Assembly: GCA_964630025.1 (NCBI GenBank)
Contig: CAZVRG010000004.1
Location: 1-45,657 of the forward strand
From: an uncultured Candidatus Saccharibacteria bacterium
GTDB taxonomy: Bacteria > Patescibacteriota > Andersenbacteria > UBA10190 > CAIZMI01
Length of the DNA: 45,657 bases
Direction of reading: 5' to 3'
Below, piece after piece: positions 4,956 through 42,500 of this stretch; positions within the stretch are counted from its first letter, which is position 1, and every line of letters starts with the position of its first letter. Under the pieces are notes generated by a model. That model searched no databases. It saw nothing but the letters and a program-made list of their open reading frames with translations, and had not been told where the DNA came from. The translations under genes and the position numbers were made by a program.

Positions 4956-5546
4956 ATGACGCAATTCATAGGGAACAGGGAACAGAGAACAGGACACAGA
5001 GAACGCACGCAACGCGTCCCTGATCCCTGTTCCCTGATCCCTGTTCCTTTTCCCTCGTCGTCCGCTGGCATCACCTTCATTGAAGTGCTGGTCACGGTCT
5101 TCATCGTTGGGCTTATGTCCACCATTCTTCTCGTTGGCGCTGTCGGTGCGCGGAGAAACGCGACGGTCCGGACTGCCGCGCAGCAGGTAGCGGCATTTCT
5201 TCGTGAGACGGGAAACCTTGCGCTGAACGGCGTGAAAGCAGAAGATTGCGACCCAAGCGATTCGCAGTGCTCTGCCTATCGCGTCACGCTCGGTCCATCA
5301 GACACCAAGACCGCGTACATGCGTCAGGCGCTTGGCGGCGGAGAAGAAGTGCGTGTGCCGTTGCCCGTCGGTGCGGTGTTTCCCGTCACGAATCAAGAAG
5401 TGGAATTCGTCTACACCCCCCCAATCCTTTCTGCAACGGCGGCGGAGATTGCCATAACGCATACAACCGGCGCGCCGCGGTGGCTGGTCTGCGTCACCTC
5501 GCTGGGAAGTGTTACCGTACAAACAGGAGAACAGTGCGTGCAATGA
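4956..5546 (+). CDS. Minor pilin / pseudopilin (prepilin-type N-terminal domain)
   Basis: PSSSAG/ITFIEVLVTVFIVGLM with Glu+5. The ~38-aa leader is encoded by heptamer hairpin H1. No in-frame ATG, GTG or TTG lies between the hairpin and the cleavage motif. Confidence 0.75.
   Translation: MTQFIGNREQRTGHRERTQRVPDPCSLIPVPFPSSSAGITFIEVLVTVFIVGLMSTILLVGAVGARRNATVRTAAQQVAAFLRETGNLALNGVKAEDCDPSDSQCSAYRVTLGPSDTKTAYMRQALGGGEEVRVPLPVGAVFPVTNQEVEFVYTPPILSATAAEIAITHTTGAPRWLVCVTSLGSVTVQTGEQCVQ
4971..5047. repeat. Heptamer-arm hairpin H1 (inside the pseudopilin leader)
   Basis: Left arm GGGAACA GGGAACA GAGAACA GGACACA, core GAGAACGCACGCAACGCGTCCC, right arm TGATCCC TGTTCCC TGATCCC TGTTCC. The arms are near-perfectly complementary. 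Confidence 0.85.
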
Positions 5547-6238
5547 CACAAACACCAGTGAACAGGGAACAGGGAACAGGGAACAGGGAACGCACGCAGC
5601 GTGTCCCTCCAGTCTCTGGCCTAAGTAAGGCCTCGTCGTCCGGCTTTACCCTTCTCGGTGTTCTCATTGGCGCGTTGTTCATTGTTCTTGTCTCCACGGG
5701 ACTTGTGTTCACCGCACAGCGCACGGGACGTGTTGCCACCGCAACCAAAGAACGGCTCATTTCGACACTTCTTGCGCGGGAAGGTGTTGAACTTGTGCGC
5801 GCGATTCGCGATAACAACTGGCTCGCGACGCCGCGGTGTCCTGCAGTTGGCGCGTGCACGATTTTTTGGCGTGGGCAAACGAGTGGTCCGGGTGCACTCT
5901 GTAACGGAACGTTTCGCATCGATGCCGACGCGCTTGAACTTCTCCCTGCTTCCGCAGGTAGTGAAGAAACGCGGCTTGCACTCGATGGCACAGCATACCG
6001 TCATGGCAGCGGCACGCCAACGACATACCGGCGTTGGGTCACTATTGAATCGCCGGAGGAAGGATGCGGAACACCCTCGATCTTCTCCCTCGGATCCATT
6101 CCCGCTCCGCAACCGCCACAGCCGCTGACGGTGCGTGTGGTTGTGGCATGGGACGACAACCCCGATGCTTCCTGTGCGCCAGGCCGTCAGTGTGTTGAAT
6201 TACGAGAAGATCTTCACCCGTGGATGAATTTCCGATGA
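5543..6238 (+). CDS. Minor pilin / pseudopilin-like protein
   Basis: KASSSG/FTLLGVLIGALFIVLV, with no Glu+5. ATG 5543 overlaps the upstream TGA (ATGA), so it was preferred over the 5246 ORF extension, which overlaps the upstream gene out of frame. The leader is encoded by hairpin H2. Confidence 0.7.
   Translation: MTQTPVNREQGTGNRERTQRVPPVSGLSKASSSGFTLLGVLIGALFIVLVSTGLVFTAQRTGRVATATKERLISTLLAREGVELVRAIRDNNWLATPRCPAVGACTIFWRGQTSGPGALCNGTFRIDADALELLPASAGSEETRLALDGTAYRHGSGTPTTYRRWVTIESPEEGCGTPSIFSLGSIPAPQPPQPLTVRVVVAWDDNPDASCAPGRQCVELREDLHPWMNFR
5558..5620. repeat. Heptamer-arm element H2 (degenerate right arm)
   Basis: GTGAACA followed by four GGGAACA units (the last truncated), then core GCACGCAGCGTGTCCC. 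The right arm TCCAGTCTCTGG is only weakly complementary. Confidence 0.7.
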
Positions 6239-6861
6239 ACATACGGATACGAGGGATCAGAGAACAGGGGACAGTGAACAGAGAACGCACCCGACGCGTC
6301 CCTGTCCTCTGTGCTCTGCCCCCTGTCCCCGCGTCGTCCGGCTTTACCTTCATTGAAGCGATTGTTTCTGTTGCCATCTTTCTTGTGCTTATCGGTACGG
6401 TGGCGGGAATTTTTTCCACGTTCTCGCGCCAGCAGAAGCAGGGCATTACGCAGGCAACGCTTCTTGGGGAAGCGCAGGCCGCCATCGAAATCTTGGAACG
6501 GGAAGTACGGACAGGGTTCTCCAATACATTTTCCGGTGCTGGCGCCGCGTTCAGCTTTCGCAACCAAAATAACGTTCTCGTCACGTATGAACTCGCCGAT
6601 GGGCGCCTGATGCGGCGCGCTGTTCCTCCAGATCAAGCAACCCCGGTCACGCCGGCGACTGTGGAGATACGGTCGCTCGAATTTGTGACACGCACGCCAA
6701 CCATCGATCTTGGCGCAGCGCCCCAAGTGCCCATTCTCACCGGAGAACAAGGCCGCGTCACTGTCCGCATGCGCATGTGCCCCACAGGCATTGATACCGA
6801 TCAGCGATGCCTGCAGGTACAGACAACCTTAACGTCGCGCCAATATGCACCCGCACTCTAA
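6235..6861 (+). CDS. Minor pilin / pseudopilin
   Basis: PASSG/FTFIEAIVSVAIFLVLIG with Glu+5. ATG 6235 overlaps the upstream TGA; the alternative start is GTG 6220. The leader is encoded by hairpin H3. Confidence 0.7.
   Translation: MNIRIRGIREQGTVNRERTRRVPVLCALPPVPASSGFTFIEAIVSVAIFLVLIGTVAGIFSTFSRQQKQGITQATLLGEAQAAIEILEREVRTGFSNTFSGAGAAFSFRNQNNVLVTYELADGRLMRRAVPPDQATPVTPATVEIRSLEFVTRTPTIDLGAAPQVPILTGEQGRVTVRMRMCPTGIDTDQRCLQVQTTLTSRQYAPAL
6253..6330. repeat. Heptamer-arm hairpin H3
   Basis: Left arm GGGATCA GAGAACA GGGGACA GTGAACA GAGAAC, core GCACCCGACGCGTCC, right arm CTGTCCT CTGTGCT CTGCCCC CTGTCCCC. Confidence 0.8.
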
Positions 6862-9893: not shown

Positions 9894-11320
9894 CCGCCTC
9901 GATTCGTGACCTTCATGAGCGTCTTCGCCGCGGGGAGACGACGGCGGAGAAACTTCTCGATGCCGCGCTCGTCGCCATACGGAAGCAGGATCAAACACTG
10001 CACAGTTTTCTTCATGTCGCCGAGGACTCGGCGCGCGCAGCTGCACAGCGCGTCGATCGCGCATTGCAGTCAGGAACGGAAGAGCTGTCCGTCCTCGCCG
10101 GCATACCCTGCGCGATCAAAGACATGATTTGCGTGGCAGGCCTTCCCGCTACGGCAGCGTCCCACATTCTGGAAGGATTTGTTCCTCCATATGACGCAAC
10201 GGTGATCCAGCGCCTCAAAGACCATGGCGCGGTGATTGTGGGGAAGACCAATCTGGACGAGTTCGCGATGGGTTCGAGCACGGAACATTCCGCGTTCGGT
10301 CCCACGCGCAACCCGCTCGATACAAAACGCGTGCCTGGCGGTTCATCCGGCGGGTCGGCCGCCGCGGTGGCAGCAGGATTTGTCCCCTATGCGCTCGGAA
10401 CAGATACCGGCGGATCGATTCGTCAGCCCAGCAGTTTTTGCGGCATTGTGGGGTTGAAACCCACCTACGGGCGCGTGAGCCGTTCCGGCGTGATCGCACT
10501 CGCCAGTTCCTTTGATCAGGTGGGCCCATTCGCGCGCACCGTCGAAGATGCCGCCATTGTCTATGAAGCAATTGCCGGGGAAGATCCCAAAGACGGAACC
10601 ACGCTGCGCGGCCCGGCGCCAACAGTGCTTCCTGCGCTCACAGAAGGCGTCGAAGGATTACGCATTGGCGTTCCGGAAGAGTATTTCGCCGAAGGCGTAG
10701 ATACAGGCGTTGCGCAGACAGTCCGGAAAGCCATCGGTGCTCTTGCCGGACTCGGTGCCGAAGTGGTTGATGTGTCGTTGCCGCTCACAGGAGTCGCGCT
10801 TGCGGTATACTACATGCTCATGGATTCGGAGGCGTCCACGAATCTCGCTCGCTATGACGGCGTGCGTTTTGGGCAGCGCGTGAAGTCCAAGACTCTTGAG
10901 GAGGTATATCGGAAGAGTCGCGGCGCGGGTTTTGGCGCGGAAGTGAAGCGACGCATTCTTCTGGGGACATTTGCGCTCTCTACGGGCTATGCAGATCAGT
11001 ATTACCGCAAAGCGGCGGCGGTGAGACGCGCAATCGCGAACGAATATGCGAAGGCATTTAAGACCGTTGACGTGCTGGTGTCTCCAGCCGCTCCCGAAGT
11101 GGCGTTCCGTCTCGGAGAGAAAGTAGCCGACCCGTTGCGTATGTATGCGTCGGATGCCTTGTCGGTACCCGCAAACGTTGCGGGCATTCCCGGACTTGTG
11201 GTGCCTTGCGGAACGGTGAACACGCTTCCCGTTGGCGTGCAAGTGCTTGCACCGCTGGGAAGAGAAGATCTGTTGTTTCGCGTTGGTGCCGCGTATGAGC
11301 GTGCGCGGGAACGCGCATGA
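9890..11320 (+). CDS. gatA: Asp/Glu-tRNA amidotransferase subunit A
   Basis: Amidase signature GGSSGGSAAAVA and TDTGGSIRQPSSFCG. ATG 9890 overlaps the gatC stop. Confidence 0.95.
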   Translation: MTASIRDLHERLRRGETTAEKLLDAALVAIRKQDQTLHSFLHVAEDSARAAAQRVDRALQSGTEELSVLAGIPCAIKDMICVAGLPATAASHILEGFVPPYDATVIQRLKDHGAVIVGKTNLDEFAMGSSTEHSAFGPTRNPLDTKRVPGGSSGGSAAAVAAGFVPYALGTDTGGSIRQPSSFCGIVGLKPTYGRVSRSGVIALASSFDQVGPFARTVEDAAIVYEAIAGEDPKDGTTLRGPAPTVLPALTEGVEGLRIGVPEEYFAEGVDTGVAQTVRKAIGALAGLGAEVVDVSLPLTGVALAVYYMLMDSEASTNLARYDGVRFGQRVKSKTLEEVYRKSRGAGFGAEVKRRILLGTFALSTGYADQYYRKAAAVRRAIANEYAKAFKTVDVLVSPAAPEVAFRLGEKVADPLRMYASDALSVPANVAGIPGLVVPCGTVNTLPVGVQVLAPLGREDLLFRVGAAYERARERA

Positions 11321-12923: not shown

Positions 12924-15311
12924 ATGGTCTTCGTGTCTAAGTGGCGCGACGCGAGCGATGCGTTTTTTCTTGCTGTCCTTCTGATCAGCGGTGTTTCCGT
13001 TGCCGGCGCTGTCTTAAGCTTGGCGCGGTTTGCGCAGGAATATGGTCCCGTTGTTGCGCAGGATCTTGAAGAGCCTGTTCCCCCACCTGGCCCGGCTCCA
13101 GAACCACCTCCGCCTGACCCACCGCCTCCGCCGCCTGGAACCGAACTAGCCCCCCCGGGTGGGGATCCTCCGCCCGCACCGGGCGGCGGGCCTGCTCCAG
13201 CTCCCGCACCTCCGCCAACGGGTGGTACTCCCCCAGCAGGTGGCACACCGCCCGCTCCGCCTCCGCGAGGGGGGCCAGGACCAGCGCCACAACCGGCGCC
13301 ACCCCCGCCAGTTGGCGTGCCGCCCGGCGTGGACGAAATTGAGCCCGCACCAGGTGAAACGGTCTCCCCAGTACCGACAAATGGTGTGTTTCCACCCGCC
13401 GTGCAGCCTGCTCCTCCGGGCGGAGGAGAGCCGGTGTCTGGTCACACGCTGCCGTGGTGGGGCGTGTTCTGGCATCCGGGCGGTGGCGGATTTATCCAGA
13501 TCCTTCCGTGGCAGCAGATTCTCCAAAAACCCATCACGTGGGTATGGATCTTTTTGTGGATTGCGATTTTCGTGTGGCTCTGGACAATTGTGCAGGCCAT
13601 CTATTGGTTCCCGGGATTTTTCTGGATTCTGTTCGGGTTCCACTCGTTCATTTGGTACTGGTATTGGCTGTGGACGTGGTTCTGGGGTTTCATTCGACCA
13701 CAACCGATCACTGTAGGAATTGGACCCGGTCCAGGACCCGGGCCATGGCCGGGTCCTGGACCACAACCTGCGCCTGGCCCCTGGCCGGGTCCTGGGCCGC
13801 AGCCCGGTCCACAACCCGGTCCCGGACCAACTCCGGGGCCTATGCCGGGCCCTCAACCTGGGCCCGCTCCCGGGCCTGGTCCGGGCCCCGGTCCGCAACC
13901 AGGTCCAACTCCTGGTCCGGGTCCTACCCCGCAACCTGGACCCATGCCTGGGCCGCAACCAGGTCCCAGCCCCGGTCCCCAGCCGGGTCCAATGCCAGGG
14001 CCACAGCCCGGGCCTCCCCCAGGCCCAATTCCTGGTCCGCAACCTGGGCCGACGCCCAGTCCAACTCCTGGTCCTATCCCGGGTCCCCAGCCGACGCCTG
14101 GCCCGTGGCCGGGCCCTGGCCCACAACCTGCGCCTGGCCCGTGGCCGGGCCCTGGGCCGCAGCCGGCGCCTACACCCGGTCCGCAACCTGGCCCCGGACC
14201 CATTGCTGGTCCGCCACCAATTTCCGGACCAGGCGGAGGCTCGCCATCTGGTCCGGCTCCCGATCCCGTGTCACCGGTTGAGGAGGGTATCGGAAGACTT
14301 CTGGCCAGATTGCCGTCACGTGCGGGAAGAATTGCCGCGGAGAGCGTTGCGCGCGGAGAGCTTCCTATTCCTGCATTAAGCGGACAGAGAGCGGCGGAAG
14401 CTCCGTCGCTCACAGAAGTGATGATGGCGTCTGCCGATTCTCGGCGTCTGACGGGTTTTTCCGCACTAGGCATTCTTGCCACACATCGATACCGATCGAA
14501 GTGGGGGCGCGTGATTGATGCCAAGAATGGGCTTCCTGTGCAAGGGGCAGTTGTGACGCTTCTGGATGCGCAGGGAAAACCGCGCCAAAACATTCGTACA
14601 AAAGCAGATGGCAATTTTGCGTTTCTTGTCCCTCCTGGCCGCTATCTTCTGAATGTGGTGCGTCCACACTATGTGATGGAAACGCAGCCCAAGTCGCCCG
14701 CGCTCTTTCCTGACGAAATCTTGTATACAGGAGCGCCCTTCGCCGTCGAGCCGTCACCCGATGGTCGGGAAACGCTCACGCCGCCGGTGGTGATCACCAT
14801 GAAATCTACAAAAAAAGGCGCGCAGGGCGTGTCTGTGCGTCCGGCCGTGCATCGGGTCAGCAATGCCGCGCGTGCACTGCATGCGCACGTGGCGCTTCCG
14901 ATCCTGTTATTGAGTGCAGGATTTAACACCTTTATGCTTCTTCTGCAGCCCACGCCGTTTCTTGTTGCCGCAGAAGTGCTTTACGGCGTCTTGCTGTCCA
15001 TGGAATTGTTGCTTTCCCGCGTCTTCCGCCGCGCGATCGGGCGTTTGCGTGATGCCGTGACACGCAATCCGGTTTCCCTTGCGATTCTTCGGCTCATGGA
15101 TGCGCGCACGGGACGCATTGTCAACACGTATGTGTCCACAGCGGGTGGGTCGTTTCTCTTCCTTTCTCGCCCCGGAGCCTACCGTCTCCTATCGGCACAT
15201 CCGAAATACCAACCGCATGATGAGCGGATTGCCATTCGCGGCGGATCGCCCGGGCTCGGAAGAGTAACGGTCCGCCTGCAGCCACGGGGGAAAGTGGTCG
15301 CGGCAGTCTAA
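12924..15311 (+). CDS. Proline-rich, Trp-rich membrane protein with a (PGPX)n repeat and two carboxypeptidase-regulatory-like domains (paralog P2)
   Basis: The N-terminus SKWRDASDAFFLAVLLISGV is homologous to P1. The C-terminal half is collinear with P1 (WGRVIDAKNGLPVQGAVVTLLD...GRYLLNV; GRLRDAVTRNPVSLAILRLMD...GAYRLLS). A unique W-rich block and a PGPX array are inserted between them. Confidence 0.7.
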   Translation: MVFVSKWRDASDAFFLAVLLISGVSVAGAVLSLARFAQEYGPVVAQDLEEPVPPPGPAPEPPPPDPPPPPPGTELAPPGGDPPPAPGGGPAPAPAPPPTGGTPPAGGTPPAPPPRGGPGPAPQPAPPPPVGVPPGVDEIEPAPGETVSPVPTNGVFPPAVQPAPPGGGEPVSGHTLPWWGVFWHPGGGGFIQILPWQQILQKPITWVWIFLWIAIFVWLWTIVQAIYWFPGFFWILFGFHSFIWYWYWLWTWFWGFIRPQPITVGIGPGPGPGPWPGPGPQPAPGPWPGPGPQPGPQPGPGPTPGPMPGPQPGPAPGPGPGPGPQPGPTPGPGPTPQPGPMPGPQPGPSPGPQPGPMPGPQPGPPPGPIPGPQPGPTPSPTPGPIPGPQPTPGPWPGPGPQPAPGPWPGPGPQPAPTPGPQPGPGPIAGPPPISGPGGGSPSGPAPDPVSPVEEGIGRLLARLPSRAGRIAAESVARGELPIPALSGQRAAEAPSLTEVMMASADSRRLTGFSALGILATHRYRSKWGRVIDAKNGLPVQGAVVTLLDAQGKPRQNIRTKADGNFAFLVPPGRYLLNVVRPHYVMETQPKSPALFPDEILYTGAPFAVEPSPDGRETLTPPVVITMKSTKKGAQGVSVRPAVHRVSNAARALHAHVALPILLLSAGFNTFMLLLQPTPFLVAAEVLYGVLLSMELLLSRVFRRAIGRLRDAVTRNPVSLAILRLMDARTGRIVNTYVSTAGGSFLFLSRPGAYRLLSAHPKYQPHDERIAIRGGSPGLGRVTVRLQPRGKVVAAV
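13720..14240 (+). repeat. Coding tandem repeat with 12-nt period, encoding (P-G-P-X)n
   Basis: ~43 tetrapeptide units (PGPQ/PGPT/PGPM/PGPW...). A ~62-nt block at 13741-13803 recurs nearly identically at 14101-14163, exactly 360 nt downstream. Confidence 0.9.
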
Positions 15312-26253: not shown

Positions 26254-28508
<2,255 letters not shown>

Positions 28509-28720: not shown

Positions 28721-28933
28721 ATGGTTTTGTCCGCACTGAAGGCCTTTCGCCTTCCGTCGCTGCTCGGCTTCACCCGTGAGGTCCGGCAGGAACTTAAAGG
28801 TGTGCAATGGCCGAGTCGCGAGACGACGGTGCGTTTTACCGTGCTCGTCATCGGCGTATCGGCAGTTGTCGGCATTGCAACGAGCCTTCTTGATGCTCTC
28901 CTCACGCTTGGGGTTGAACAGATTCTTCCGTAG
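28721..28933 (+). CDS. secE: Preprotein translocase subunit SecE
   Basis: 70 aa with FTREVRQELKGVQWPSRETTVRFTVLVIGVSAVVG, a single TM. It sits upstream of nusG as is usual. Confidence 0.8.
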   Translation: MVLSALKAFRLPSLLGFTREVRQELKGVQWPSRETTVRFTVLVIGVSAVVGIATSLLDALLTLGVEQILP

Positions 28934-29002
28934 CTTCTAGCTTGTAGCTTGTAGGCGGTCATAACGCACGTTCCTATAAACTAGAAGCTATAACCTAGAA
29001 CC
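28931..29002. repeat. Heptamer-arm hairpin H4 (fills the secE-nusG gap)
   Basis: Left arm TAGCTTC TAGCTTG TAGCTTG TAGG, core CGGTCATAACGCACGTT, right arm CCTATAA ACTAGAA GCTATAA CCTAGAA. It starts on the secE stop codon and ends 8 nt before the nusG ATG. Confidence 0.8.
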
Positions 29003-30688: not shown

Positions 30689-31111
30689 ATGGCAAAGGAA
30701 GTTCTTACGCAGGTAAAGCTGCAGATTCCCGGCGGGAAAGCGACGCCGGCGCCTCCCATTGGGCCGGCGCTGGGTCAGCATGGCGTGAACATACAAGACT
30801 TCTGCTCGAAGTTCAACGAGCAAACACGCGACAAGCAGGGCGAAGTGACGCCTGTAGTGCTGACAATTTATAAGGATCGCTCGTTCACCTTCATTTTCAA
30901 AACCCCGCCCGCAGCGGAGCTCTTGAAGAAAGCTGCGGGGGTTGAGAAAGGGTCCGGCACGCCAAACACCGCGAAAATCGGCACCGTCACGAAAGCACAG
31001 GTGCGCGAGATTGCGGAAAAGAAAATGGTGGACTTAAATGCCTCCGGTGTTGATGAGGCGATGCGGATTATCGAAGGCACCGCGCGGTCTATGGGGATTT
31101 CAGTTAAATAA
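30689..31111 (+). CDS. rplK: 50S ribosomal protein L11
   Basis: [26 protein letters not shown] and the full-length L11 pattern. Confidence 0.95.
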
Positions 31112-31112
31112 T

Positions 31113-31221
31113 CAAGCTCCAATAACCAAGCTCCAAACAATGTTCAAGCTCCAAGCTCCAAAACACTCCCGTTTTTTCATTGAGTATTGGAATTGTTTGG
31201 AATTTGGAATTTGAGATTTGG
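31113..31221. repeat. Heptamer-arm hairpin H5 (fills the rplK-rplA gap)
   Basis: The left arm is rich in AAGCTCC/CAAGCTC units and the right arm in GGAATTT/GAATTTG units. Pairing needs G.U pairs and a few mismatches. Confidence 0.75.
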
Positions 31222-31235
31222 TATTTTTTACGACT

Positions 31236-32237: not shown

Positions 32238-33725
32238 ATGGAACTTGAAACCATCATCGGCCTGGAGATTCACGTCCATTTGAATACGAAATCGAAGCTG
32301 TTTTGCAGCTGCCGTAACGTGTCGGCGGCTGATCGACCGAATCAATACGTCTGTCCGGTCTGCATGGGATTCCCAGGGACGCTGCCCGTGACGAATGCGC
32401 AAGCGATTGAATGGACGGCGCTCGCCGGTCTGGCGCTTGGCTGTACCATTGCGAAGCACGCGACCTTTGCGCGGAAGAGCTATTTCTATCCCGATCTGCC
32501 GAAGGGATACCAAATCTCACAGTACGATGAGCCGCTCTGCATACACGGAGAAGCGCATGTGTTTGTGGGTGACACCGATCGCCACGTGCGTATTGAGCGC
32601 GTGCATCTGGAAGAAGATGCGGCAAAGAACGTACATACCAAGGATGCAACGCGTATTGATCACAACCGCGCAGGGACGCCGTTGATCGAAATCGTCACTG
32701 CGCCCGATCTGCGTAGTCCGCAGGAAGCAAAAATGTTTCTGGAAGAGCTGCAGCGCACCATGTGGTATCTCCGCATTTCAAACGCCGACATGGAAAACGG
32801 CGATCTTCGCGTGGACGCAAATATCTCCTTGCGCGAGCAGGGAGGAAAACTTTCGCCGAAGACGGAAATCAAAAACCTTAACTCTTTCCGCGCGGTCGAG
32901 CGTGCGCTCGCGTATGAAATTGAGCGCCAGCAAAAACTGTGGGAGGCAGGAACGCCGCCGACGACATCCAGCACGCGAGGATGGAATGATGAAAAAGGGC
33001 AGACGGTGGAGCAGCGCGTGAAAGAAGCGGAAGCGGATTACCGATACTTTCCCGAGCCGGATATTCCACCCCTTGTGTTGGAGCCTTCGTGGGTCGAGAA
33101 GCTTCGCATCGCACTTCCAGAACTTCCGCATGCGAAGGAAGAACGTTTCCGTCGCCAATATCAGATGGCGCCGGCGGACGCACGTTTGATCACGACGGAT
33201 CGTTCACTTGCCGACTTCGCAGAAAATGTCTTTTCCGAGATTGGGGAATGGGTTGCGGAACGGCCAGATGTCGAGCAGCGCGAAATTCCCCTCCTGGAGA
33301 AGCTCGCCACGAATTATCTGCTCGGAGATTTTCGACGGCTTCTTTCAGACGCAAAGGCAACTGTGGCCGATACAAAAGTCACACCCGAGAATTTCGCGGA
33401 ACTTGTCGTGATGCTGCATCGCGCTGAAGTAAATCGAAACGCCGTGCCGGATGTTCTGCGTCTCATGCACGGGACAGGCGGCGATCCTTCCACCATCGTG
33501 CAAGAGCGCGGCTTGCAGCAGGTATCGGATGCGGATGAACTGCGTCGTCTCGTGCAGAACGTCGCATTGAGTTTTCCGGCAGAAGTAGACAAGGTCCGCG
33601 GCGGGAAAGAACAAACACTGGAATTTCTTGTGGGACAAGTGATGGCGCAAACAAAGGGTCGCGCGAATCCCAAGACCGTGCGCGAGCTCTTCCGCGAAGA
33701 GTTAGGACTGTCAACGAGCGGGTAA
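32238..33725 (+). CDS. gatB: Asp/Glu-tRNA amidotransferase subunit B
   Basis: IGLEIHVHLNTKSKLFC, NQYVCPVCMGFPGTLP and RKSYFYPDLPKGYQISQ, plus a C-terminal GatB/YqeY domain. Confidence 0.95.
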   Translation: MELETIIGLEIHVHLNTKSKLFCSCRNVSAADRPNQYVCPVCMGFPGTLPVTNAQAIEWTALAGLALGCTIAKHATFARKSYFYPDLPKGYQISQYDEPLCIHGEAHVFVGDTDRHVRIERVHLEEDAAKNVHTKDATRIDHNRAGTPLIEIVTAPDLRSPQEAKMFLEELQRTMWYLRISNADMENGDLRVDANISLREQGGKLSPKTEIKNLNSFRAVERALAYEIERQQKLWEAGTPPTTSSTRGWNDEKGQTVEQRVKEAEADYRYFPEPDIPPLVLEPSWVEKLRIALPELPHAKEERFRRQYQMAPADARLITTDRSLADFAENVFSEIGEWVAERPDVEQREIPLLEKLATNYLLGDFRRLLSDAKATVADTKVTPENFAELVVMLHRAEVNRNAVPDVLRLMHGTGGDPSTIVQERGLQQVSDADELRRLVQNVALSFPAEVDKVRGGKEQTLEFLVGQVMAQTKGRANPKTVRELFREELGLSTSG

Positions 33726-34754
33726 GGGTTTCCCCAAGAATTCGGACATACAGTCGAGGGCCTCTGCGGGCGAGTCCACTCGAACAAGCTCGGGCTCCTT
33801 CGTGAGCCAGAGAAGCTGTCGACGGACATACTGGCGATGCGAGCGGAGCACTGCCTCTTTCGTCTCCTCAAGCGTGCCTTCGCCGCGGAGGTGTGAGAGC
33901 ACTTGCCGGTACCCGACAGATTGCAATCCGGGCGCGTCTGCGCCATAGGCGTTCACAAGTGCCTGCACTTCTTCAACAAACCCGCGGCGGAAGTATTCTT
34001 CGACACGACGCGCAAGGCGCTGTTCGAGTATCTCCGGAGGCGGAAGAAGCGCGAGTTTTAGAAAGCGGAAGGCAGTAGGCAACGGGGAAGAGGCAGTAGG
34101 GGCGAGGACGACGTCGCGTGCATCCCTACTCCCTACTGCCTGTTGCCTGTTCCCTCGAGCTCTCGCAATTTCCAGCGCCCGAATCACCCGCCGCGTATTC
34201 TTGAGATTGTCGATGCCAGTGAAAAGGTCTGGCGCGCGTGTTTCCAGTTCCTGAAGAAGATCCGCAAGCGGTTGTTGCTCCGCCCACGCACGGAATGCGG
34301 GATCCGGCGGCACGGAAGGCAGTGAGCGATGACCTGTGAGCACACGGACATAAAAACCCGTTCCTCCAACCACAATGGGAAGTTTTCCGCGCTTGTGGAT
34401 GTCGGCAATGATATGTTGCGCGTCCTCGCGAAATTCAGCAGCGGAATACCGCTGCGTTGGGAGAAGAATATCGATAAGATAGTGGGGAACATCCTCACAG
34501 AACAATGGTTCTGTTCGGAAACCTCGAAGCTTGAATGACGAATGACGAATGCGAGTAGTTTCGAAATTCGAAATTCGGAATTCGAATGTACACGGTTTAT
34601 CCGTTCCAATATCCATCCCGAGATAAATCTGTCGGGAATCAGCACTGATAATCTCTCCGTTGTATTTCTTCGCGAGTTCCAACGCGAGCGCGGATTTCCC
34701 CGCACCGGTGGGACCCATCAAGACGACCAATGGGAGGTGAGCTTGCGATGGCAT
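33711..34754 (-). CDS. miaA: tRNA dimethylallyltransferase MiaA carrying two in-frame hairpin-element insertions
   Basis: P-loop MGPTGAGKS, ADSRQIYLGMDIGTDKP, PIVVGGTGFY and GYRQV. The start was set to ATG 34754 because the longer ORF reads through hairpin H8. The 3' end overlaps gatB convergently by 15 nt. Confidence 0.9.
   Translation of the reverse strand: MPSQAHLPLVVLMGPTGAGKSALALELAKKYNGEIISADSRQIYLGMDIGTDKPCTFEFRISNFETTRIRHSSFKLRGFRTEPLFCEDVPHYLIDILLPTQRYSAAEFREDAQHIIADIHKRGKLPIVVGGTGFYVRVLTGHRSLPSVPPDPAFRAWAEQQPLADLLQELETRAPDLFTGIDNLKNTRRVIRALEIARARGNRQQAVGSRDARDVVLAPTASSPLPTAFRFLKLALLPPPEILEQRLARRVEEYFRRGFVEEVQALVNAYGADAPGLQSVGYRQVLSHLRGEGTLEETKEAVLRSHRQYVRRQLLWLTKEPELVRVDSPAEALDCMSEFLGKPLPAR
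34072..34155. repeat. Heptamer-arm hairpin H7 (inside the miaA CDS)
   Basis: Twelve consecutive heptads (84 nt = 28 codons): GGCAGTA GGCAACG GGGAAGA GGCAGTA GGGGCGA GGACGAC GTCGCGT GCATCCC TACTCCC TACTGCC TGTTGCC TGTTCCC. Confidence 0.85.
34533..34588. repeat. Heptamer-arm element H6 (inside the miaA CDS)
   Basis: GAATGAC GAATGAC GAATGCG AGTAGTT TCGAAAT TCGAAAT TCGGAAT TCGAATG. CGAAT/ATTCG blocks pair at 7-nt spacing, separated by 2-nt mismatches. Confidence 0.7.
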
Positions 34755-34787
34755 GACGTCACAGTGGCATGAGCAGGCGGCTTCCTC

Positions 34788-34914
34788 AAGAAGCTCCAAG
34801 CTCCAAATGCCAAGCTTCAAGTAATGCTCAATCCGGCAATACGTAAACGCGCCAGTCGCTTTGCGTATTGGACTTGGAACTTGTTTGGAGCTTGGTGCTT
34901 GAAACTTGGAGTTT
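34788..34914. repeat. Heptamer-arm hairpin H8 (divergent intergenic region upstream of miaA)
   Basis: Left arm AAGCTCC AAGCTCC AAATGCC AAGCTTC AAGTAAT..., core ACGTAAACGCGCCAGTCGCTTTGCGTA, right arm ...CTTGGAA CTTGTTT GGAGCTT GGTGCTT GAAACTT GGAGTTT. Confidence 0.8.
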
Positions 34915-34924
34915 GCGCGAATGG

Positions 34925-34975
34925 TACACCCCGTGAGAAGTGCCAATATGCCGTGCACTTCTAACGGGGTACACT
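34925..34975. repeat. CCCCGT-type inverted repeat, copy 4, ending in TACACT
   Basis: TACACCCCGTGAGAAGTGC-CAATATGCC-GTGCACTTCTAACGGGGTACACT. The ATG lies 6 nt after the -10-like TACACT. Confidence 0.8.
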
Positions 34976-35763: not shown

Positions 35764-37203
35764 TCAGCCGAGCGTCAGCGATTTTTGCGCGACGCGTTCG
35801 CGGAGGAATGCGAGCGCGTCCGCGAGTGATTTCACTCCAAGATTCTTCCCACCGTGGGCGCGCAGCGTCACAGTGTTGCCCTGCTGTTCCTTTTCTCCCA
35901 CAACAATCATCACGGGGATCTTCTGGACTTCCGCCGACCGAATTTTCTTCGGGAGCGTTTCGTTTGATTCGTCGAGTTCCGCGCGCAGACCGCCATCGCG
36001 CAATGCATCCGCAACACGTGTTGCATACGCGACCGCCGACTGACTCACGGGAAGCACACGCACCTGTATGGGAGCAAGCCACAGCGGGAATAGTCCGTTG
36101 AAGTGCTCAATCAGAAACGCGATGAATCGCTCGTGGGTTCCGATAACACCCCGATGCACGATCACCGGCCGCTCAGCTTTTCCTTCCTCGTTCGTCACTT
36201 CGATCCCGAAGCGCTCTGGAAGAAGCATGTCGAGCTGGATCGTCGAGACGGTGAACGTGTGTCCTGCAACATCTTTCATCTGGATGTCGGCTTTTGGGCC
36301 GTAGAATGCTGCGTCACCAACCGCTTCCGTGAACTTCACGCCGGCATGCTGAAGCGCAGAACGCAGTGCCGCTTCGCTTTGTTCCCAGAGCGCAATATTG
36401 TCCGCATACTTTTTCTTGTTCTTTGGGTCGTGTAATGCCAAGTCCACCCAATAGTCAGTCAGTCCGAGTGTTTGATAGACGCGCCGAATGAGCTCGAGGG
36501 TTTTTACGATTTCCGCTTCGATCTGATCCTCGCGGCAGAAAATGTGTGCATCGTTCAGGGTCATGCCGCGCACGCGGGTGAGACCCATGAGCTGGCCTGA
36601 CTTTTCGAAGCGGTACATGGTGCCGAATTCCGCGATGCGCATGGGCAAATCGCGATACGAGCGCGGCCGCGACTGGAAAATGCGGATGTGATGTGGACAG
36701 TTCATCGGCTTCAGGACAAACTCCTCCCCCTCAACCTTCATCAGCGGAAACATCGTGTCTTTGTAGTAGGGAAGATGGCCGGAGGTTTCATACAGCTCCG
36801 CCTTCCCAAGGTGCGGCGTGATGACATGCAGATATCCTGCGCGCAATTCTTCTTCGATAATGAATCGCTCCAGTTCGCGACGGATCGTTGCACCCTTCGG
36901 AAGCCACAGCGGTAGTCCGCTGCCGACCATCGGGTCAATGATGAACAGATCCAATTCCGCTCCGAGGCGTCTGTGATCTCTTGGAGACAACGTCTCCCCC
37001 TCATCTTTTTGAGGCTGGCGACGGCCTGCCCCACGACTTGTCCCGCGTAGCTCAAAGAGCGAAGTGGGAAGCCCAGAGGGCGAAGTGGGGCCTGCCCCGC
37101 GAAGCCCAGAGGGCGAAGTGGGGTGATCGCGCGGCGAGAGTTCAGCGGGTTCCGGAACAGCCGGTGTCTTCTTTTCGCCCAAAGGACGCTTGGTGGGTGG
37201 CAT
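35764..37203 (-). CDS. thrS: Threonyl-tRNA synthetase: catalytic and anticodon-binding domains only (no TGS or editing domain)
   Basis: Homology begins at DHRRLGAELDLFII. Class II motifs are present (HVITPHL..., FRFEKSGQLMGLTRVRGMTLNDAHIF, GDAAFYGPK), along with a C-terminal HGPT-type anticodon-binding domain. TGTAAAGT lies 6 nt upstream of ATG 37203. An alternative start is TTG 36990. Confidence 0.9.
   Translation of the reverse strand: MPPTKRPLGEKKTPAVPEPAELSPRDHPTSPSGLRGAGPTSPSGLPTSLFELRGTSRGAGRRQPQKDEGETLSPRDHRRLGAELDLFIIDPMVGSGLPLWLPKGATIRRELERFIIEEELRAGYLHVITPHLGKAELYETSGHLPYYKDTMFPLMKVEGEEFVLKPMNCPHHIRIFQSRPRSYRDLPMRIAEFGTMYRFEKSGQLMGLTRVRGMTLNDAHIFCREDQIEAEIVKTLELIRRVYQTLGLTDYWVDLALHDPKNKKKYADNIALWEQSEAALRSALQHAGVKFTEAVGDAAFYGPKADIQMKDVAGHTFTVSTIQLDMLLPERFGIEVTNEEGKAERPVIVHRGVIGTHERFIAFLIEHFNGLFPLWLAPIQVRVLPVSQSAVAYATRVADALRDGGLRAELDESNETLPKKIRSAEVQKIPVMIVVGEKEQQGNTVTLRAHGGKNLGVKSLADALAFLRERVAQKSLTLG
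37013..37125. repeat. In-frame tandem repeat in the 5' end of thrS
   Basis: On the coding strand, CCCCACTTCGCCCTCTGGGCTTC occurs twice 33 nt apart, followed by a partial third copy. It encodes PTSPSGLRGAG PTSPSGL PTSLFELRG. Confidence 0.8.
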
Positions 37204-39508: not shown

Positions 39509-42500
39509 AGATCACAGGAGTTCTGACAGTTTCGAATGCGTCTTCGGGAGAGGCTATTTCGATAGCTTCCGCGTCGAGCAGCGTACACAGCTGCTTCTTC
39601 GCCTGACCATCAAGCGTCACGGTGAATGATGTTTTCACCAGATCCACCGCGCCGTTCTGTTTCGGGACGCGGAGATACACGCGGATCGGACCGGGCGGAA
39701 GCGCGCCGAGGAATTCCTTTAGGGAAAGTAATATTGTGCGGCTTCCGTTTGGCGGTACTGCCAGGATTGCATATGGTGGCGGTGGCGTTTCCAGAACAAG
39801 ACGGCGTTCTTGTGATTGTGGGGCGTGTGACGCTGACGCACCGATAGGCTGCATCGTTTCAGAGACGCGTGTTGCTTCTTCGCAGAGAATTTTTGGGACA
39901 CCGTCGCGATCATTTACCCGGCCTTCCACTATGAGAATAGTTTCTTCTGCCCAGAGATCCGGATGTGCTTCTAAGATTTTGGGAAACACCAGGACTTCCA
40001 CGGAGCCCGTTTGGTCTTCCAGCGTCACGAATGCCATGGTCTCTCGGCTCCGCGTAACGACTTTTTGCACATGCGTCACAATGCCGCCGACACAGACGCT
40101 GTAGTCCACGAGGTCTGTAGAAATATCTTTCATGGGCGTTGTCCGACCGGCGAGGAGATGTGCCACCGTGGCGACCGGATGGCCAGACACGTACAGTCCA
40201 AGAAGTTGTTTTTCCCATTGCAACCGTTGCGTCGCAGGAGCGGGAGGGACAGGGCGAAGCGTGACAGACGGCACACCCTTCTCGTCGGACCCACCGAAAA
40301 GTGCTCCTTGTCCCGCGAGTTCCTGCTTTTGCATATTGCGGCCAAGCTGGAGAAGCATGTCGAGGTTTTCCAGCATCGCATTGCGCTCGCCGAGAGCGTC
40401 GAGCGCTCCTGCTTTTATCAAGCTTTCTGCAGCTTTCCGGTTGAATTCTCGTGTCTGCACGCGCTGAAAGAACTCCGCAAGCGAGCGGAACGGCCCGCCA
40501 GAAGCGCGTGCGTCGAGAATGGCACGCACAACACCCGCACCCACATTTTTCACCGCGACAAGACCGAAGCGAATAGCCTTGCGATTCGCGGAATCCTTAT
40601 TCCGTAGTTCTAATTCCCGGTTCTCCGTAGTGGTCACCACCGTAAAGTGTTCTCCGCTCTCATTCACGTCTGGCGGAAGTACCGGAATGCCCATGGTCGT
40701 ACATTCGGTGACCTCAATGGCGATGCGGTCGGTGTCGTTTTCGTCCGATGTGAGCAGCGCGGCCATGAATGCTGCGGGGTAATGTGTCTTGAGATAGGCA
40801 GTTTGATAGGCGATGAGGGCATAGCATGCCGCATGCGCGCGGTTAAAACCGTAATTCGCGAAGGGTTCGATGAAGGCAAATATTTTTTCGGCTGTTGTTG
40901 TATCGACGCCGTTTTTGACTGCTCCGTCAATGAATTTTTCTTTTTGTGCCTTCAGGAGCTTTTCAATTTTCTTTCCCACGGCCTTGCGGAGGATATCCGC
41001 TTCTCCAAGGGTGAAGCCAGCGATCGCGCGCGCGATTTCCAACACCTGCTCCTGATAGACGGCGATGCCGTAGGTCTTTTTCAAGATGGGCTCGAGCGCG
41101 GGGTGAAGGTACTTCGGTGTCTGCAAGCCATGCTTTCCCGCAACGTATTGCGGGATCAGTTCCATCGGTCCCGGGCGGTAGAGCGATACCATCGCGATAA
41201 TGTCTTCAAATTCCGTCGGCTTCAGTTCTTTGAGATTCCGCTTCATGCCTGCGCTCTCCAGCTGAAAGACACCGGTTGTCAGACCTTCCTGGAGCGTTCG
41301 GTACGTTGGCGCATCGTCGAGAGGCAGCGCGTCGAGGTCGATGTTCACGCCAGCGTGTTCTCGGATTACCCGGAGAGCGTGCCCGAGAATCGTCAGGTTT
41401 TTTAATCCCAAGAAATCGATTTTCAACAGACCAAGATTTTCGATCGCATGCATTTCGTATTGTGTGACGATGGTTGCGTCATCCGTGCTCACGCGTTGCA
41501 CGGGAACATGCTCCACGAGTGGGGAGGGCGTGATAACAACGCCGGCGGCATGGGTGCTTGCATGGCGGGCAACCCCCTCAAGTTTTTTTGCGGTATCGAG
41601 AAGACGCTGCACTTGTGGATCGTCGGCGGCGAGCTGCCGGAGCTCTTTCGATTCTTGCCGCGCTTTATCCAGCGATGTGCCGAACGGGATGAGCTTCGCG
41701 ACTTTGTCGCAGAAGGTATACGGAAATCCCAGTGCGCGGCCCACATCGCGTACTGCAGCGCGTGCCGCCATGGTTCCAAAGGTGATAATTTGCGCGACGT
41801 GATCGCGTCCGTAGCGTTCACGAACGTATTGCAGTACTTCTTCACGCCGGTCATCGGCAAAATCCAAATCGATATCTGGCATGCTAATGCGTTCGGGATT
41901 TAAGAAGCGCTCGAAGACGAGCCGGTGTTTCAACGGGTCGATATTCGTGATGTTGAGGAGATAACTAATCAGCGATCCGGCGGCCGACCCACGGCCCGGG
42001 CCAACGAAAATCCCCTGACGCTTCGCCCAATTCACGAAGTCCTGAACAATGAGGAAATATCCGGCGAAGCCTGTTTTCTCGATAACGCCCAGTTCATATT
42101 CCATGCGTTCTCGTGCCTCTGCGGGTAGGGCGGCTCCATACCGCATGGTCATGCCGTCTTCCGCGAGACGGCGAAGGGCGGCATCCGGCGTCTCGGTAGG
42201 CGAGAGCGGGAACGACGGGAGAATAGACTTGCCGAACGTCAGCTTGGTGGTACAGCGCTCCGCAATGCGGACGGTATTTTCGAGCGCTTCCGGCACATCG
42301 CGAAATGCCTCTGCGAATGCCTCCGTCGTTTGAATGCTGAAGTCTTCGCCGAGCATGGACAGGCGATCTCGATCCGTCACGCGGGTTCCGGTTTGCACGC
42401 ACAGAAGGACATCTTGCGCTTCCGCGTCTTCGCGTCGGACATAGTGTGCGTCTCCCGTGGCCACAAGGTGAAGGCCGTGCGTGCGGGCCAACGCGCGCAG

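What the first reader, a model, noticed from the sequence alone, without database searches (positions are those of the whole stretch)
34072..34588. Two heptamer hairpins inserted in frame inside the essential-type gene miaA
The miaA ORF stays open through H6 and H7.

Around H6, conserved MiaA motifs flank the element. From my recollection of E. coli MiaA, about 8 residues separate DIGTAKP from PHRLLD. Here 35 residues separate DIGTDKP from PHYLID (CTFEFRISNFETTRIRHSSFKLRGFRTEPLFCEDV).

H7 (12 heptads = 84 nt = 28 codons) encodes RGNRQQAVGSRDARDVVLAPTASSPLPT, between RALEI and the conserved LEQRL region. That interval is ~11 residues longer than in E. coli.

This resembles the in-frame Rickettsia palindromic elements, but the repeat type is different. 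The H7 core is read in a different frame from the same core in the pilin leaders, so nucleotide structure appears to be what is conserved, not the peptide.
Basis: partly seen in the sequence, partly recalled or inferred. Interest (0 to 1): 0.8.

Follow-up and report, generated by a model that had tools for sequence, protein, structure and literature searches.

The report
In-frame heptamer-repeat hairpins inside miaA
A tRNA-modification gene (miaA) of an uncultured Parcubacteria bacterium carries two small hairpin-forming DNA repeats made of 7-base units, read through as extra protein loops; related genomes have those loops empty or filled with other hairpin repeats, so this resembles the known Rickettsia "selfish DNA inside genes" case, with a different repeat type in a different phylum.

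Summary
miaA (33711-34754, minus strand) stays open through two arrays of 7-nt units arranged as inverted arms: H7 (34061-34164) and H6 (about 34533-34590).

Gene integrity:
- dN/dS is about 0.14.
- The AlphaFold core matches E. coli MiaA (TM 0.86).
- Only the two inserts have low confidence.

- In a syntenic clade, loop 1 is exactly 20 aa in 17 of 35 proteins and 26-58 aa in 16.
- The longer versions fall into at least 9 unrelated insert types; most of those with DNA in hand fold as hairpins.
- The window's closest relatives are empty at loop 1.
- Loop 2 behaves the same way.

H7 belongs to a dispersed family: about 75% identity to three copies in pilin leader regions of the same window. Inserts are 72-79% identical at nucleotide level between lineages whose third codon positions are only 38-49% identical, while the encoded peptides differ.

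I read these as REP/RPE-like palindromic repeats built from heptamer arrays, tolerated in two permissive loops. How they spread is unknown. Intragenic REPs and RPEs and heptameric repeats are already described, so this is a new variant of a known kind, not a new category.

The parts
33711..34754 (-). miaA coding sequence (347 aa plus stop), tRNA dimethylallyltransferase, intact
   Evidence: ORF. PDB phmmer hits to MiaA, 1e-37 to 5e-43. AlphaFold pLDDT 89.2. Foldseek best match 2zm5_A/3foz_A, TMt 0.86-0.87. dN/dS 0.13-0.15. Synteny thrS-hyp-miaA-gatB-tmk-rplA-rplK in orthologs.
34061..34164 (-). H7: heptamer-array palindrome in MiaA loop 2. It encodes about RGNRQQAVGSRDARDVVLAPTASSPLPT. Sense-strand units are GGGAACA GGCAACA GGCAGTA GGGAGTA, then a loop, then the complementary arm.
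   Evidence: Inverted repeat I1/I3. z = -6.6. TRF. About 75% identical to the pilin-leader elements, z = 9-15. 72-79% identical to site-2 elements of orthologs, against 38-49% third-position identity. pLDDT 57-75.
34543..34590 (-). H6: the 48-nt net insertion relative to the nearest orthologs, in MiaA loop 1. The TTCGAAA-type array pairs weakly with the GAATGAC array at 34533-34551. It encodes about CTFEFRISNFETTRIRHSSFKLRG.
   Evidence: DNA alignment with empty orthologs. TRF. Weak fold, z = -2.2 and -2.8. 73% identical to the P0013 insert at the same point, against 39% third-position identity. pLDDT 47-73.
34791..34915 (.). H8: AAGCTCC/GGAGCTT heptamer hairpin that fills the divergent intergenic region just upstream of the miaA start
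   Evidence: Inverted repeats I2/I4. z = -3.9. 71% identical to the rplK-rplA element, z = 20.7. Orthologs carry heptamer hairpins with other units at this position.
4970..5055 (+). Family-1 (GGGAACA) hairpin in the leader-coding region of a type IV pilin-like gene; same family as H7
5556..5612 (+). Family-1 array, (CAGGGAA)x5, in the second pilin leader region
6253..6332 (+). Family-1 hairpin in the third pilin leader region
31112..31235 (.). Family-2 (AAGCTCC/TTTGGAA) hairpin between the rplK stop and the rplA start; orthologs have only 3-5 nt here
28928..29002 (.). TAGCTTC-unit hairpin between secE and nusG; shared with ortholog contig L081 and absent in L084

Best explanation
H6 and H7 are copies of lineage-specific small palindromic DNA repeats. 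Their arms are short, imperfect tandem arrays of 7-nt units, that is, heptameric simple repeats arranged as inverted pairs.

How they behave
- They behave like REP, RPE or MITE-type selfish or structural repeats.
- Several families coexist in the genome. They sit in intergenic junctions and, where the unit has no stop codon and the length is a multiple of 3, inside genes.

In miaA
- They occupy two solvent-exposed, length-tolerant loops: after the DIGTxKP motif, and after the RALEIA helix.
- They are translated straight through as disordered loop peptides.
- The enzyme stays functional.

Why the same two loops recur
- These loops act as hot spots, probably because they are among the few places where an insert survives selection.
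- Elements there are gained, lost and replaced quickly.
- What persists is the nucleotide family pattern, not the peptide.

Shown here: the repeats, the hairpins, family membership, presence or absence in orthologs, intact gene, disordered inserts.

Inferred: translation; that the inserts are neutral for the enzyme; origin of the 7-nt arrays by polymerase slippage (a hypothesis quoted in PMC4692102); an unidentified way of dispersal.
For: - Period-7 arrays are specifically enriched: 7 in the window against 0-1 for other periods, and likewise in ortholog contigs.
- H7 hairpin z = -6.6.
- H7 is about 75% identical to three pilin-leader copies. H8 is 71% identical to the rplK-rplA copy. So these are dispersed families at non-homologous sites.
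- A clean gain of about 125 nt lies between rplK and rplA, where three orthologs have 3-5 nt.
- Loop 1 is exactly 20 aa in 17 of 35 clade proteins and 26-58 aa in 16, with at least 9 insert types. Sister taxa differ, basal taxa are empty, and the window's two closest relatives are empty.
- Occupied sites mostly fold well (z = -2.6 to -5.7). Empty sites mostly do not.
- All inserts are in frame and stop-free.
- miaA dN/dS is 0.13-0.15.
- AlphaFold gives low confidence only at residues 55-80 and 201-230. The core matches the E. coli MiaA-tRNA complex.
- Insert nucleotide identity between lineages is 72-79%, against 38-49% at flanking third positions, while peptide identity is about 46%.
- Folding shows no sense/antisense asymmetry, so these are DNA-level palindromes and not mRNA-selected structures.
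- The same two loops carry heptamer arrays in distant Patescibacteria MiaA genes.
- Other genes in the window (gyrB, thrS, dnaE) also carry in-frame extras that orthologs lack.
- Intragenic REPs and RPEs are an established phenomenon (PMC10969869, PMC3733652).
Against: - No transposase or RAYT-like gene was found in 20 window ORFs scanned, and no target-site duplication was seen. Mobility is therefore inferred only from distribution.
- The nearest relatives are far away (dS 1.4 or more), so no recent empty or filled pair exists to define exact insertion borders.
- At loop 2 the element has the same 5' and 3' borders in several lineages. That could mean one old insertion kept by constraint, not turnover.
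- Some occupied sites have lost hairpin potential (P0013 site 1 z = +0.4; P0002 and P0006 site 2 z = -0.2 and -1.0).
- Nucleotide conservation above neutral expectation could equally indicate a function.
- Heptamer elements look over-represented at miaA in clade contigs, which a pure tolerance model does not predict.
- Translation of the inserts is not demonstrated.
Confidence: 0.62

Rival explanations
1. The hairpins are functional nucleic-acid elements kept by selection. Possible roles are mRNA stability or processing sites, transcription attenuators, protein-binding or cruciform or G-quadruplex sites, or cis-regulators of miaA. On this view the extra peptide is only a by-product.
For: - Insert DNA is 72-79% identical between lineages whose third codon positions are 38-49% identical.
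- Element positions are conserved: upstream of miaA in several orthologs, and the secE-nusG junction shared with L081.
- About half of the heptamer elements on clade contigs lie in or next to miaA (my count).
- The P0004 site-2 hairpin is held by 6 G-U pairs on the sense strand.
- G-rich heptamers of the GGGNATC type were proposed to form G4 structures and are mostly transcribed in Xanthomonas (PMC4692102).
Against: - There is no consistent sense-strand folding advantage over 19 elements; the mean difference is +2.8 kcal/mol in favour of the antisense strand.
- Close relatives do without the elements: P0003 and P0010 are empty at both sites.
- Unrelated palindromes replace each other at the same loop, even in sister taxa.
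- There is no Rfam match.
- Several copies have decayed.
Confidence: 0.2
2. The arrays arise and grow in place by replication slippage and fold-back copying of 7-nt units at fragile sites, with the two arms evolving in concert. No transposition is involved, and similarity between copies reflects convergent unit preferences.
For: - Heptameric repeats are over-represented in many bacteria, and polymerase slippage was proposed as the cause (PMC4692102, quoting Mrazek 2007).
- Orthologous positions carry hairpins with different units (AAGCTCC, GAGTTAT, ATGAAGT, TAGCTTT, TCTCACG upstream of miaA).
- In L027 and L002 a heptamer hairpin occupies loop 2 with almost no length change.
- No transposase was found.
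Against: - H7 and the pilin elements share the loop as well as the arms.
- The AAGCTCC family in soil metagenomes has a conserved inner motif (CCAGAGAAG...CTTCTCTGG) and a fixed polarity: 28 partner arms downstream against 2 upstream. This fits a defined element.
- Non-heptamer palindromes use the same loop (P0004, P0011, L037).
- The rplK-rplA element appears whole where relatives have 3-5 nt.
Confidence: 0.1
3. The segments are ordinary lineage-specific protein loops shaped by selection on MiaA, for example for tRNA or partner binding. The palindromic DNA is incidental.
For: Both sites vary in length among MiaA proteins generally: site 1 spans 7-40 aa among distant homologs, and P. aeruginosa has a longer loop 2.
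Against: - At least 9 unrelated peptides occur at loop 1, and sister taxa differ.
- The DNA is more conserved than the peptide.
- The same DNA family occurs in pilin leaders and intergenic regions.
- The inserts have low pLDDT.
- 7-nt periodicity has no protein-level rationale.
Confidence: 0.04
4. The heptamer arrays act as contingency (phase-variation) switches. Gain or loss of one 7-nt unit shifts the frame and turns the gene off or on.
For: - 7 is not a multiple of 3.
- Heptanucleotide repeats drive phase variation in Haemophilus (titles and abstracts of PMC8262952 and PMC12721329).
- One pilin leader region has 5 near-perfect CAGGGAA units, a classic position for such switches.
Against: - In miaA the arrays are short and imperfect, with at most 2-4 similar units, which slips poorly.
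- All orthologs sampled are in frame.
- A housekeeping tRNA-modification gene is an unlikely target.
Confidence: 0.04

Closest known systems
Rickettsia palindromic elements (RPEs; Ogata et al. 2000, 2002, as summarised in PMC10969869 and PMC3733652)
   Same: Both are multi-copy palindromic repeats inserted in frame into genes for functional, unrelated housekeeping proteins. They are read through as extra peptide, and insert positions are compatible with the fold.
   Different: RPEs are about 150-bp families with a conserved encoded peptide, found in an intracellular alphaproteobacterium. Here the elements are 50-125 nt, built from 7-nt tandem units, with variable peptides, in Patescibacteria. 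Several unrelated families compete for the same two loops. No sequence relationship to RPEs was tested.
Intragenic REPs (GTAG- and CGTC-tagged palindromes; Di Nocera et al. 2013, PMC3733652)
   Same: Both are short palindromes that are mainly extragenic but also occur inside genes for known proteins. Different REPs lie at about the same site of orthologous recB genes in Xanthomonas, which parallels the hot-spot behaviour seen here.
   Different: REPs are 20-40-bp single stem-loops with a terminal tetranucleotide tag, often linked to RAYT transposases. The elements here have arms made of heptamer arrays, no RAYT was seen in the window, and tags were not assessed.
Heptameric simple repeats: STRR of Calothrix and Nostoc, and GGGNATC repeats of Xanthomonas and Nostoc (PMC4692102)
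   Same: - Both are tandem 7-nt units in several unit families per genome.
[quoted passage not shown]
- Some occur as inverted pairs able to form stem-loops.
- G-rich units such as GGGAGTC and GGGGATC recur here (P0002 site 2).
- The GGGAACA unit of H7 and the pilin leaders occurs as long perfect arrays in filamentous cyanobacteria.
   Different: The described repeats are mainly one-arm arrays, sit in intergenic regions, and are reported as under-represented in coding regions. Here the arrays are short, imperfect, paired into palindromes and repeatedly in frame inside housekeeping genes.
MITEs
   Same: Both are small, non-coding, inverted-repeat elements with patchy presence or absence, and both can make in-frame fusions (PMC10969869).
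   Different: No terminal inverted repeats distinct from the body, no target-site duplication and no parent IS were found here.

Membership tests
Rickettsia palindromic elements (RPE) | Palindromic repeat present in several copies in the genome | tested here: met
   H7 is about 75% identical to three other copies in the window (z = 9-15). H8 matches the rplK-rplA element (71%, z = 20.7). For H6, no second copy was found in the window.
Rickettsia palindromic elements (RPE) | Inserted in frame in genes for functional proteins, at fold-compatible positions | tested here: met
   The ORF is open, dN/dS is 0.13-0.15, and low pLDDT is confined to the inserts within a MiaA fold. Translation itself was not tested.
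Rickettsia palindromic elements (RPE) | Sequence homology to an RPE family, with a conserved encoded peptide | tested here: not met
   Peptides are not conserved: about 46% identity between the related inserts of the window and P0013, and at least 9 unrelated types at one loop. The architecture (7-nt arrays, 50-125 nt) differs from the roughly 150-bp RPEs described in PMC10969869. Direct alignment to RPE sequences was not possible.
REP / REPIN (RAYT-associated) | 20-40-bp stem-loop with a conserved terminal GTAG or CGTC tag | not tested
   GTAG and CGTC strings occur inside H7, but tetranucleotides are too short to judge and no family consensus was built.
REP / REPIN (RAYT-associated) | A cognate RAYT (IS200/IS605-like tyrosine transposase) in the genome | tested here: inconclusive
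   No such Pfam domain was found in 20 window ORFs, but only 45.7 kb of the genome is available.
MITE | Terminal inverted repeats plus a target-site duplication | tested here: inconclusive
   The whole element is an inverted repeat. No flanking direct duplication is visible at the rplK-rplA or miaA sites, but the relatives are too diverged (dS 1.4 or more) to fix the borders.
Heptameric SSR / STRR | Tandem repetition of a 7-nt unit | tested here: met
   TRF period 7 at 34123-34155, 34533-34551 and 34560-34586. Period 7 is uniquely enriched.
Heptameric SSR / STRR | Long, near-perfect, one-directional arrays in intergenic regions, under-represented in coding sequence (PMC4692102) | tested here: not met
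   Arrays here have 2.7-5 imperfect units paired with an inverted arm. Five of the 8 elements in the window lie in reading frames.
MiaA (tRNA dimethylallyltransferase, PF01715) | P-loop, DSxQxY motif, IPPT fold | tested here: met
   Precomputed Pfam PF01715, invariant residues conserved, PDB and Foldseek matches.

The most novel reading that the evidence does not exclude
Heptamer-array palindromes may be a cross-phylum class of elements, seen here in Patescibacteria and Verrucomicrobiota and sharing units with cyanobacterial and Xanthomonas heptamer repeats. On this reading they are either actively targeted to specific sites or kept by selection at the nucleotide level, and they prefer RNA-modification genes. 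Supporting hints are miaA loops 1 and 2 across Patescibacteria, and an RluA-RlmI fusion in a Verrucomicrobiota contig. That would point to an undiscovered dedicated machinery, or to a cis-regulatory link between the hairpins and the enzymes they sit in, and not to passive tolerance of junk.
Probability: 0.12. Interest if true: 0.85.

Novelty: new variant of a known kind. Interest (0 to 1): 0.55.

Why it matters
- It extends in-frame selfish or structural repeats from Rickettsia and a few REP-rich proteobacteria to the Candidate Phyla Radiation. In those small, streamlined genomes such insertions are less expected.
- It links that phenomenon to heptameric simple repeats, which are poorly understood.
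- Two MiaA loops act as natural insertion-tolerant sites with rapid turnover. That offers a way to study how palindromic repeats spread and how proteins absorb them.
- It is also a practical warning. Repeat-derived peptides inflate and distort protein predictions in CPR genomes: extended starts, odd pilin leaders, and spurious small ORFs.

Tried and rejected
- Pseudogene or assembly artefact. Rejected: the ORF is intact, dN/dS is about 0.14, the fold is normal, and independent assemblies carry elements at the same sites.
- Translational bypass or excision of the inserts. Considered and set aside because every insert seen at either site is a multiple of 3 and stop-free in the miaA frame, which would not be required if the inserts were skipped.
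- mRNA-level structure selection. A sense versus antisense folding comparison over 19 elements showed no asymmetry.
- Known RNA families. Rfam gave only 3 tRNAs.
- CsrA-type GGA motifs in the units. Checked by eye and dropped, because many units lack GGA on either strand.
It still showed heptamer arrays in the same loops of distant Patescibacteria.
- A synthetic GGGAACA-hairpin peptide query was swamped by perfect cyanobacterial arrays and gave no CPR host proteins.
- My regex-based loop measurement failed on distant loci and was replaced by an alignment.
- Metagenomic AAGCTCC loci are not orthologous to the window.
- Paper searches failed five times before working. Elhai 2008 and Ogata 2002 could not be fetched.
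- No held paper links Patescibacteria with heptameric repeats.

Full report
**What is in the sequence**

The minus-strand ORF 33711..34958 encodes MiaA. The start that matches orthologs is ATG 34754, giving 347 aa.

- The best named relative is from 'Parcubacteria group bacterium Gr01-1014_38' at 60% identity.
- Gene order thrS-hyp-miaA-gatB-tmk-rplA-rplK is shared with the ortholog contigs.
More lie at 4970-5055, 5556-5591, 6253-6330, 28930-29000, 31107-31226 and 34791-34915.
- A period scan finds 7 arrays of period 7, against 0-1 for every other period from 4 to 12.

H7 is a strong palindrome. Its arms are 34061-34101 and 34124-34164, and the 25-nt core is 84% complementary. The fold is -57.3 kcal/mol with z = -6.6.

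H6 is weak, with z = -2.2 and -2.8. Its arms pair only in 5-bp blocks.

A third hairpin, H8 (34791-34915, AAGCTCC units), fills the intergenic region upstream of miaA.

**The gene is alive**

- Invariant MiaA residues are kept.
- dN/dS against four orthologs is 0.13-0.15, with dS 1.4-2.0.
- An AlphaFold model has mean pLDDT 89.2.
- It matches the E. coli MiaA-tRNA complex (2zm5_A and 3foz_A, TM 0.86-0.87).
- Confidence drops only at residues about 55-80 and 201-230, which are the two inserts.

**Length claims**

- E. coli has 8 residues (NAEELLAA) where the window has 35.
- The relevant baseline is the clade's own 20 residues, so H6 adds 16 aa (48 nt).
- At H7 the protein is 11-12 aa longer than solved MiaA proteins and 13-15 aa longer than empty clade members.

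**Ortholog test**

Loop 1:
- Among 35 clade proteins, loop 1 is exactly 20 aa in 17 and 26-58 aa in 16.
- The long versions fall into at least 9 unrelated sequence types.

DNA for eight orthologs at loop 1:

| Ortholog | Loop 1 state | Fold |
|---|---|---|
| P0003, P0002, P0010 | empty | P0003 and P0010 without strong hairpins |
| P0006 | AAGCTCC heptamer hairpin | z = -4.4 |
| P0017 | GGAAATT array | z = -3.0 |
| P0013 | AAATCCG/GACGAAT array | z = +0.4 (decayed) |
| P0004 | unrelated non-heptamer palindrome | z = -4.0 |
| P0011 | unrelated non-heptamer palindrome | z = -3.1 |

A neighbour-joining tree with the loops masked gives three results:
- The window's two closest relatives are empty at loop 1.
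- Basal taxa are empty.
- Sister taxa carry different inserts: P0008 against P0009, P0024 against P0021, and P0004, P0005 and P0006 all different.

Loop 2 behaves alike. The baseline is 19-23 aa, and occupied versions are 27-67 aa. The H7-like elements in the window, P0002, P0004, P0006 and P0011 begin right after LEIARxR and end before xxF-LKLAL.

**Family relationships and what is conserved**

- H7 aligns with the three pilin-leader elements at about 75% identity (z = 9-15).
- H8 aligns with the rplK-rplA element at 71% identity (z = 20.7).
- These are therefore dispersed families, not local oddities.
- The rplK-rplA copy is a clean gain: about 125 nt where three orthologs have 3-5 nt.
- The secE-nusG hairpin is shared with L081 and absent in L084.

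Between lineages:
- H6 and the P0013 insert start at the same point and are 73% identical in DNA. Flanking third codon positions are 39% identical, and the peptides about 46%.
- H7 is 72-79% identical to site-2 elements of four orthologs (z = 6.3-8.8 over shuffles), against 38-49% third-position identity.
- Folding energies show no sense-strand advantage over 19 elements.
- The conserved feature is therefore the DNA family pattern. It is neither the peptide nor an mRNA-specific structure.

**Wider distribution**

- In distant Patescibacteria, heptamer arrays sit in loop 1 of miaA in L001 (Minisyncoccia), L015 and L079 (Saccharibacteria).
- They sit in loop 2 in L002 (Peregrinibacteria) and L027.
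- L037 (Moranbacteria) has a non-heptamer palindrome in loop 1.

A metagenome scan for (AAGCTCC)3 returned 80 loci:
- 29 have the inverted arm within 300 nt, with fixed polarity (28 downstream, 2 upstream).
- They share an inner motif, CCAGAGAAG...CTTCTCTGG.
- Most lie just 5' of genes.

One copy lies in frame in an RluA-RlmI fusion whose relatives are Verrucomicrobiota.

The GGGAACA unit forms long perfect arrays in filamentous cyanobacteria.

**Literature**

- RPEs in Rickettsia insert in frame in many genes (PMC10969869).
- REPs occur inside genes of several species. Different REPs lie at about the same site of orthologous recB genes (PMC3733652).
- Heptameric repeats are over-represented in bacteria and mostly intergenic. 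They vary between related genomes, are sometimes inverted pairs, and have been tentatively ascribed to polymerase slippage (PMC4692102).
- I found no held paper linking Patescibacteria to such repeats.

**Interpretation**

The best reading (about 0.6) is this. REP/RPE-like palindromic repeats built from heptamer arrays are tolerated and translated in two permissive MiaA loops, and they turn over rapidly there.

The main rival (about 0.2) is that the hairpins are functional nucleic-acid elements. Two things keep it alive: nucleotide conservation above neutral expectation, and an apparent excess of elements at miaA.

No transposase was found in 20 window ORFs. No target duplication was seen. The dispersal mechanism is unknown.

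**Verdict**

It is a new variant of a known kind, of moderate interest.

Noticed in passing
window 4956-5075, 5552-5612, 6235-6340: Three adjacent type IV pilin-like genes lie downstream of a prepilin peptidase-like ORF (4043-4834, identified by eye). Each carries a family-1 (GGGAACA) heptamer element in frame, between the only available start codon and the G|FTxxE cleavage motif, which gives leaders of about 35-40 aa. The loop peptide NRERT(Q/R)RVP is shared by all three. One copy is (CAGGGAA)x5 without a good partner arm, so it has G-quadruplex or slippage potential.
   Followed up: partly
window 31112-31235: An AAGCTCC/TTTGGAA hairpin of about 125 nt, followed by a T-run, lies between the rplK stop and the rplA start. 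Three ortholog contigs have only 3-5 nt there, so this is a clean gain inside a ribosomal-protein operon.
   Followed up: yes
window 28928-29002; L081 about 10835-10915: A TAGCTTC-unit hairpin between secE and nusG has the secE stop codon (TAG) inside its first unit. It is shared with L081 despite dS of about 1.4 and is absent in L084. The unit has stops in both orientations, and this type is seen only outside genes.
   Followed up: partly
window 36990-37125 (thrS, minus strand): ThrRS has an insertion of about 50 aa near its N-terminus that four... three orthologs lack. It contains the direct repeat CCCCACTTCGCCCTCTGGGCTTC twice. The peptide LSPRDH occurs on both sides of the insertion but with different codons. 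A TTG preceded by GAGGGGGAG just before the second copy could be the real start.
   Followed up: partly
window 26337-26423 (gyrB 5' end): A non-heptamer palindrome (GGGGCACCCCTACGGATTCGCGAAGCGAATCCTAAGGGGACCCC, -45 kcal/mol) adds 16 aa to the N-terminal tail of GyrB relative to L081 and L084.
   Followed up: partly
window 40572-40652 (dnaE); L082 1202-1237: DnaE of the window has an 11-aa extra (NRELELRNKDS) that three orthologs lack. DnaE of L082 has an in-frame ACACCC-type heptamer array (PTPNTLHP). GatB of L084 and L086 also has 10-12-aa extras.
   Followed up: no
L081 4906-4936, L085 1568-1645, L086 5660-5743, L088 70-106: The region just upstream of, or spanning, the miaA start carries a heptamer hairpin in several orthologs, each with a different unit (GAGTTAT, ATGAAGT, TAGCTTT, TCTCACG; AAGCTCC in the window). 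By my count, about half of all heptamer elements on clade contigs lie in or next to miaA, which makes up roughly 6-8% of the sequence. Ascertainment and shared ancestry are not controlled.
   Followed up: partly
L089-L168 (metagenome loci), e.g. L116 2966-3150: AAGCTCC hairpins form a defined family in soil contigs of GC about 0.6. They share an inner motif (CCAGAGAAG...CTTCTCTGG) and a fixed arm order. Most lie just 5' of genes (PstB, PolX, a 2-hydroxyacid dehydrogenase, identified by eye). One lies in frame in an RluA-RlmI fusion of a Verrucomicrobiota-like genome.
   Followed up: partly
L010 2903-2976 and 3951-3983: In a Caldilineaceae (Chloroflexota) contig, CGTAAAA/TTTTACG heptamer arrays flank miaA on both sides.
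   Followed up: no
window 13722-14171: Proline/glycine-codon-rich 12-, 18- and 36-nt tandem repeats lie inside a 795-aa ORF that has CarboxypepD_reg domains, probably a repetitive surface protein. They are unrelated to the heptamer elements.
   Followed up: no
window 34754-34958: The database gene call for this MiaA (369 aa, P0001) starts at a TTG inside the upstream hairpin H8. The stop-free frame runs 68 codons upstream of the likely ATG. This is an example of repeat-derived N-terminal over-extension.
   Followed up: partly
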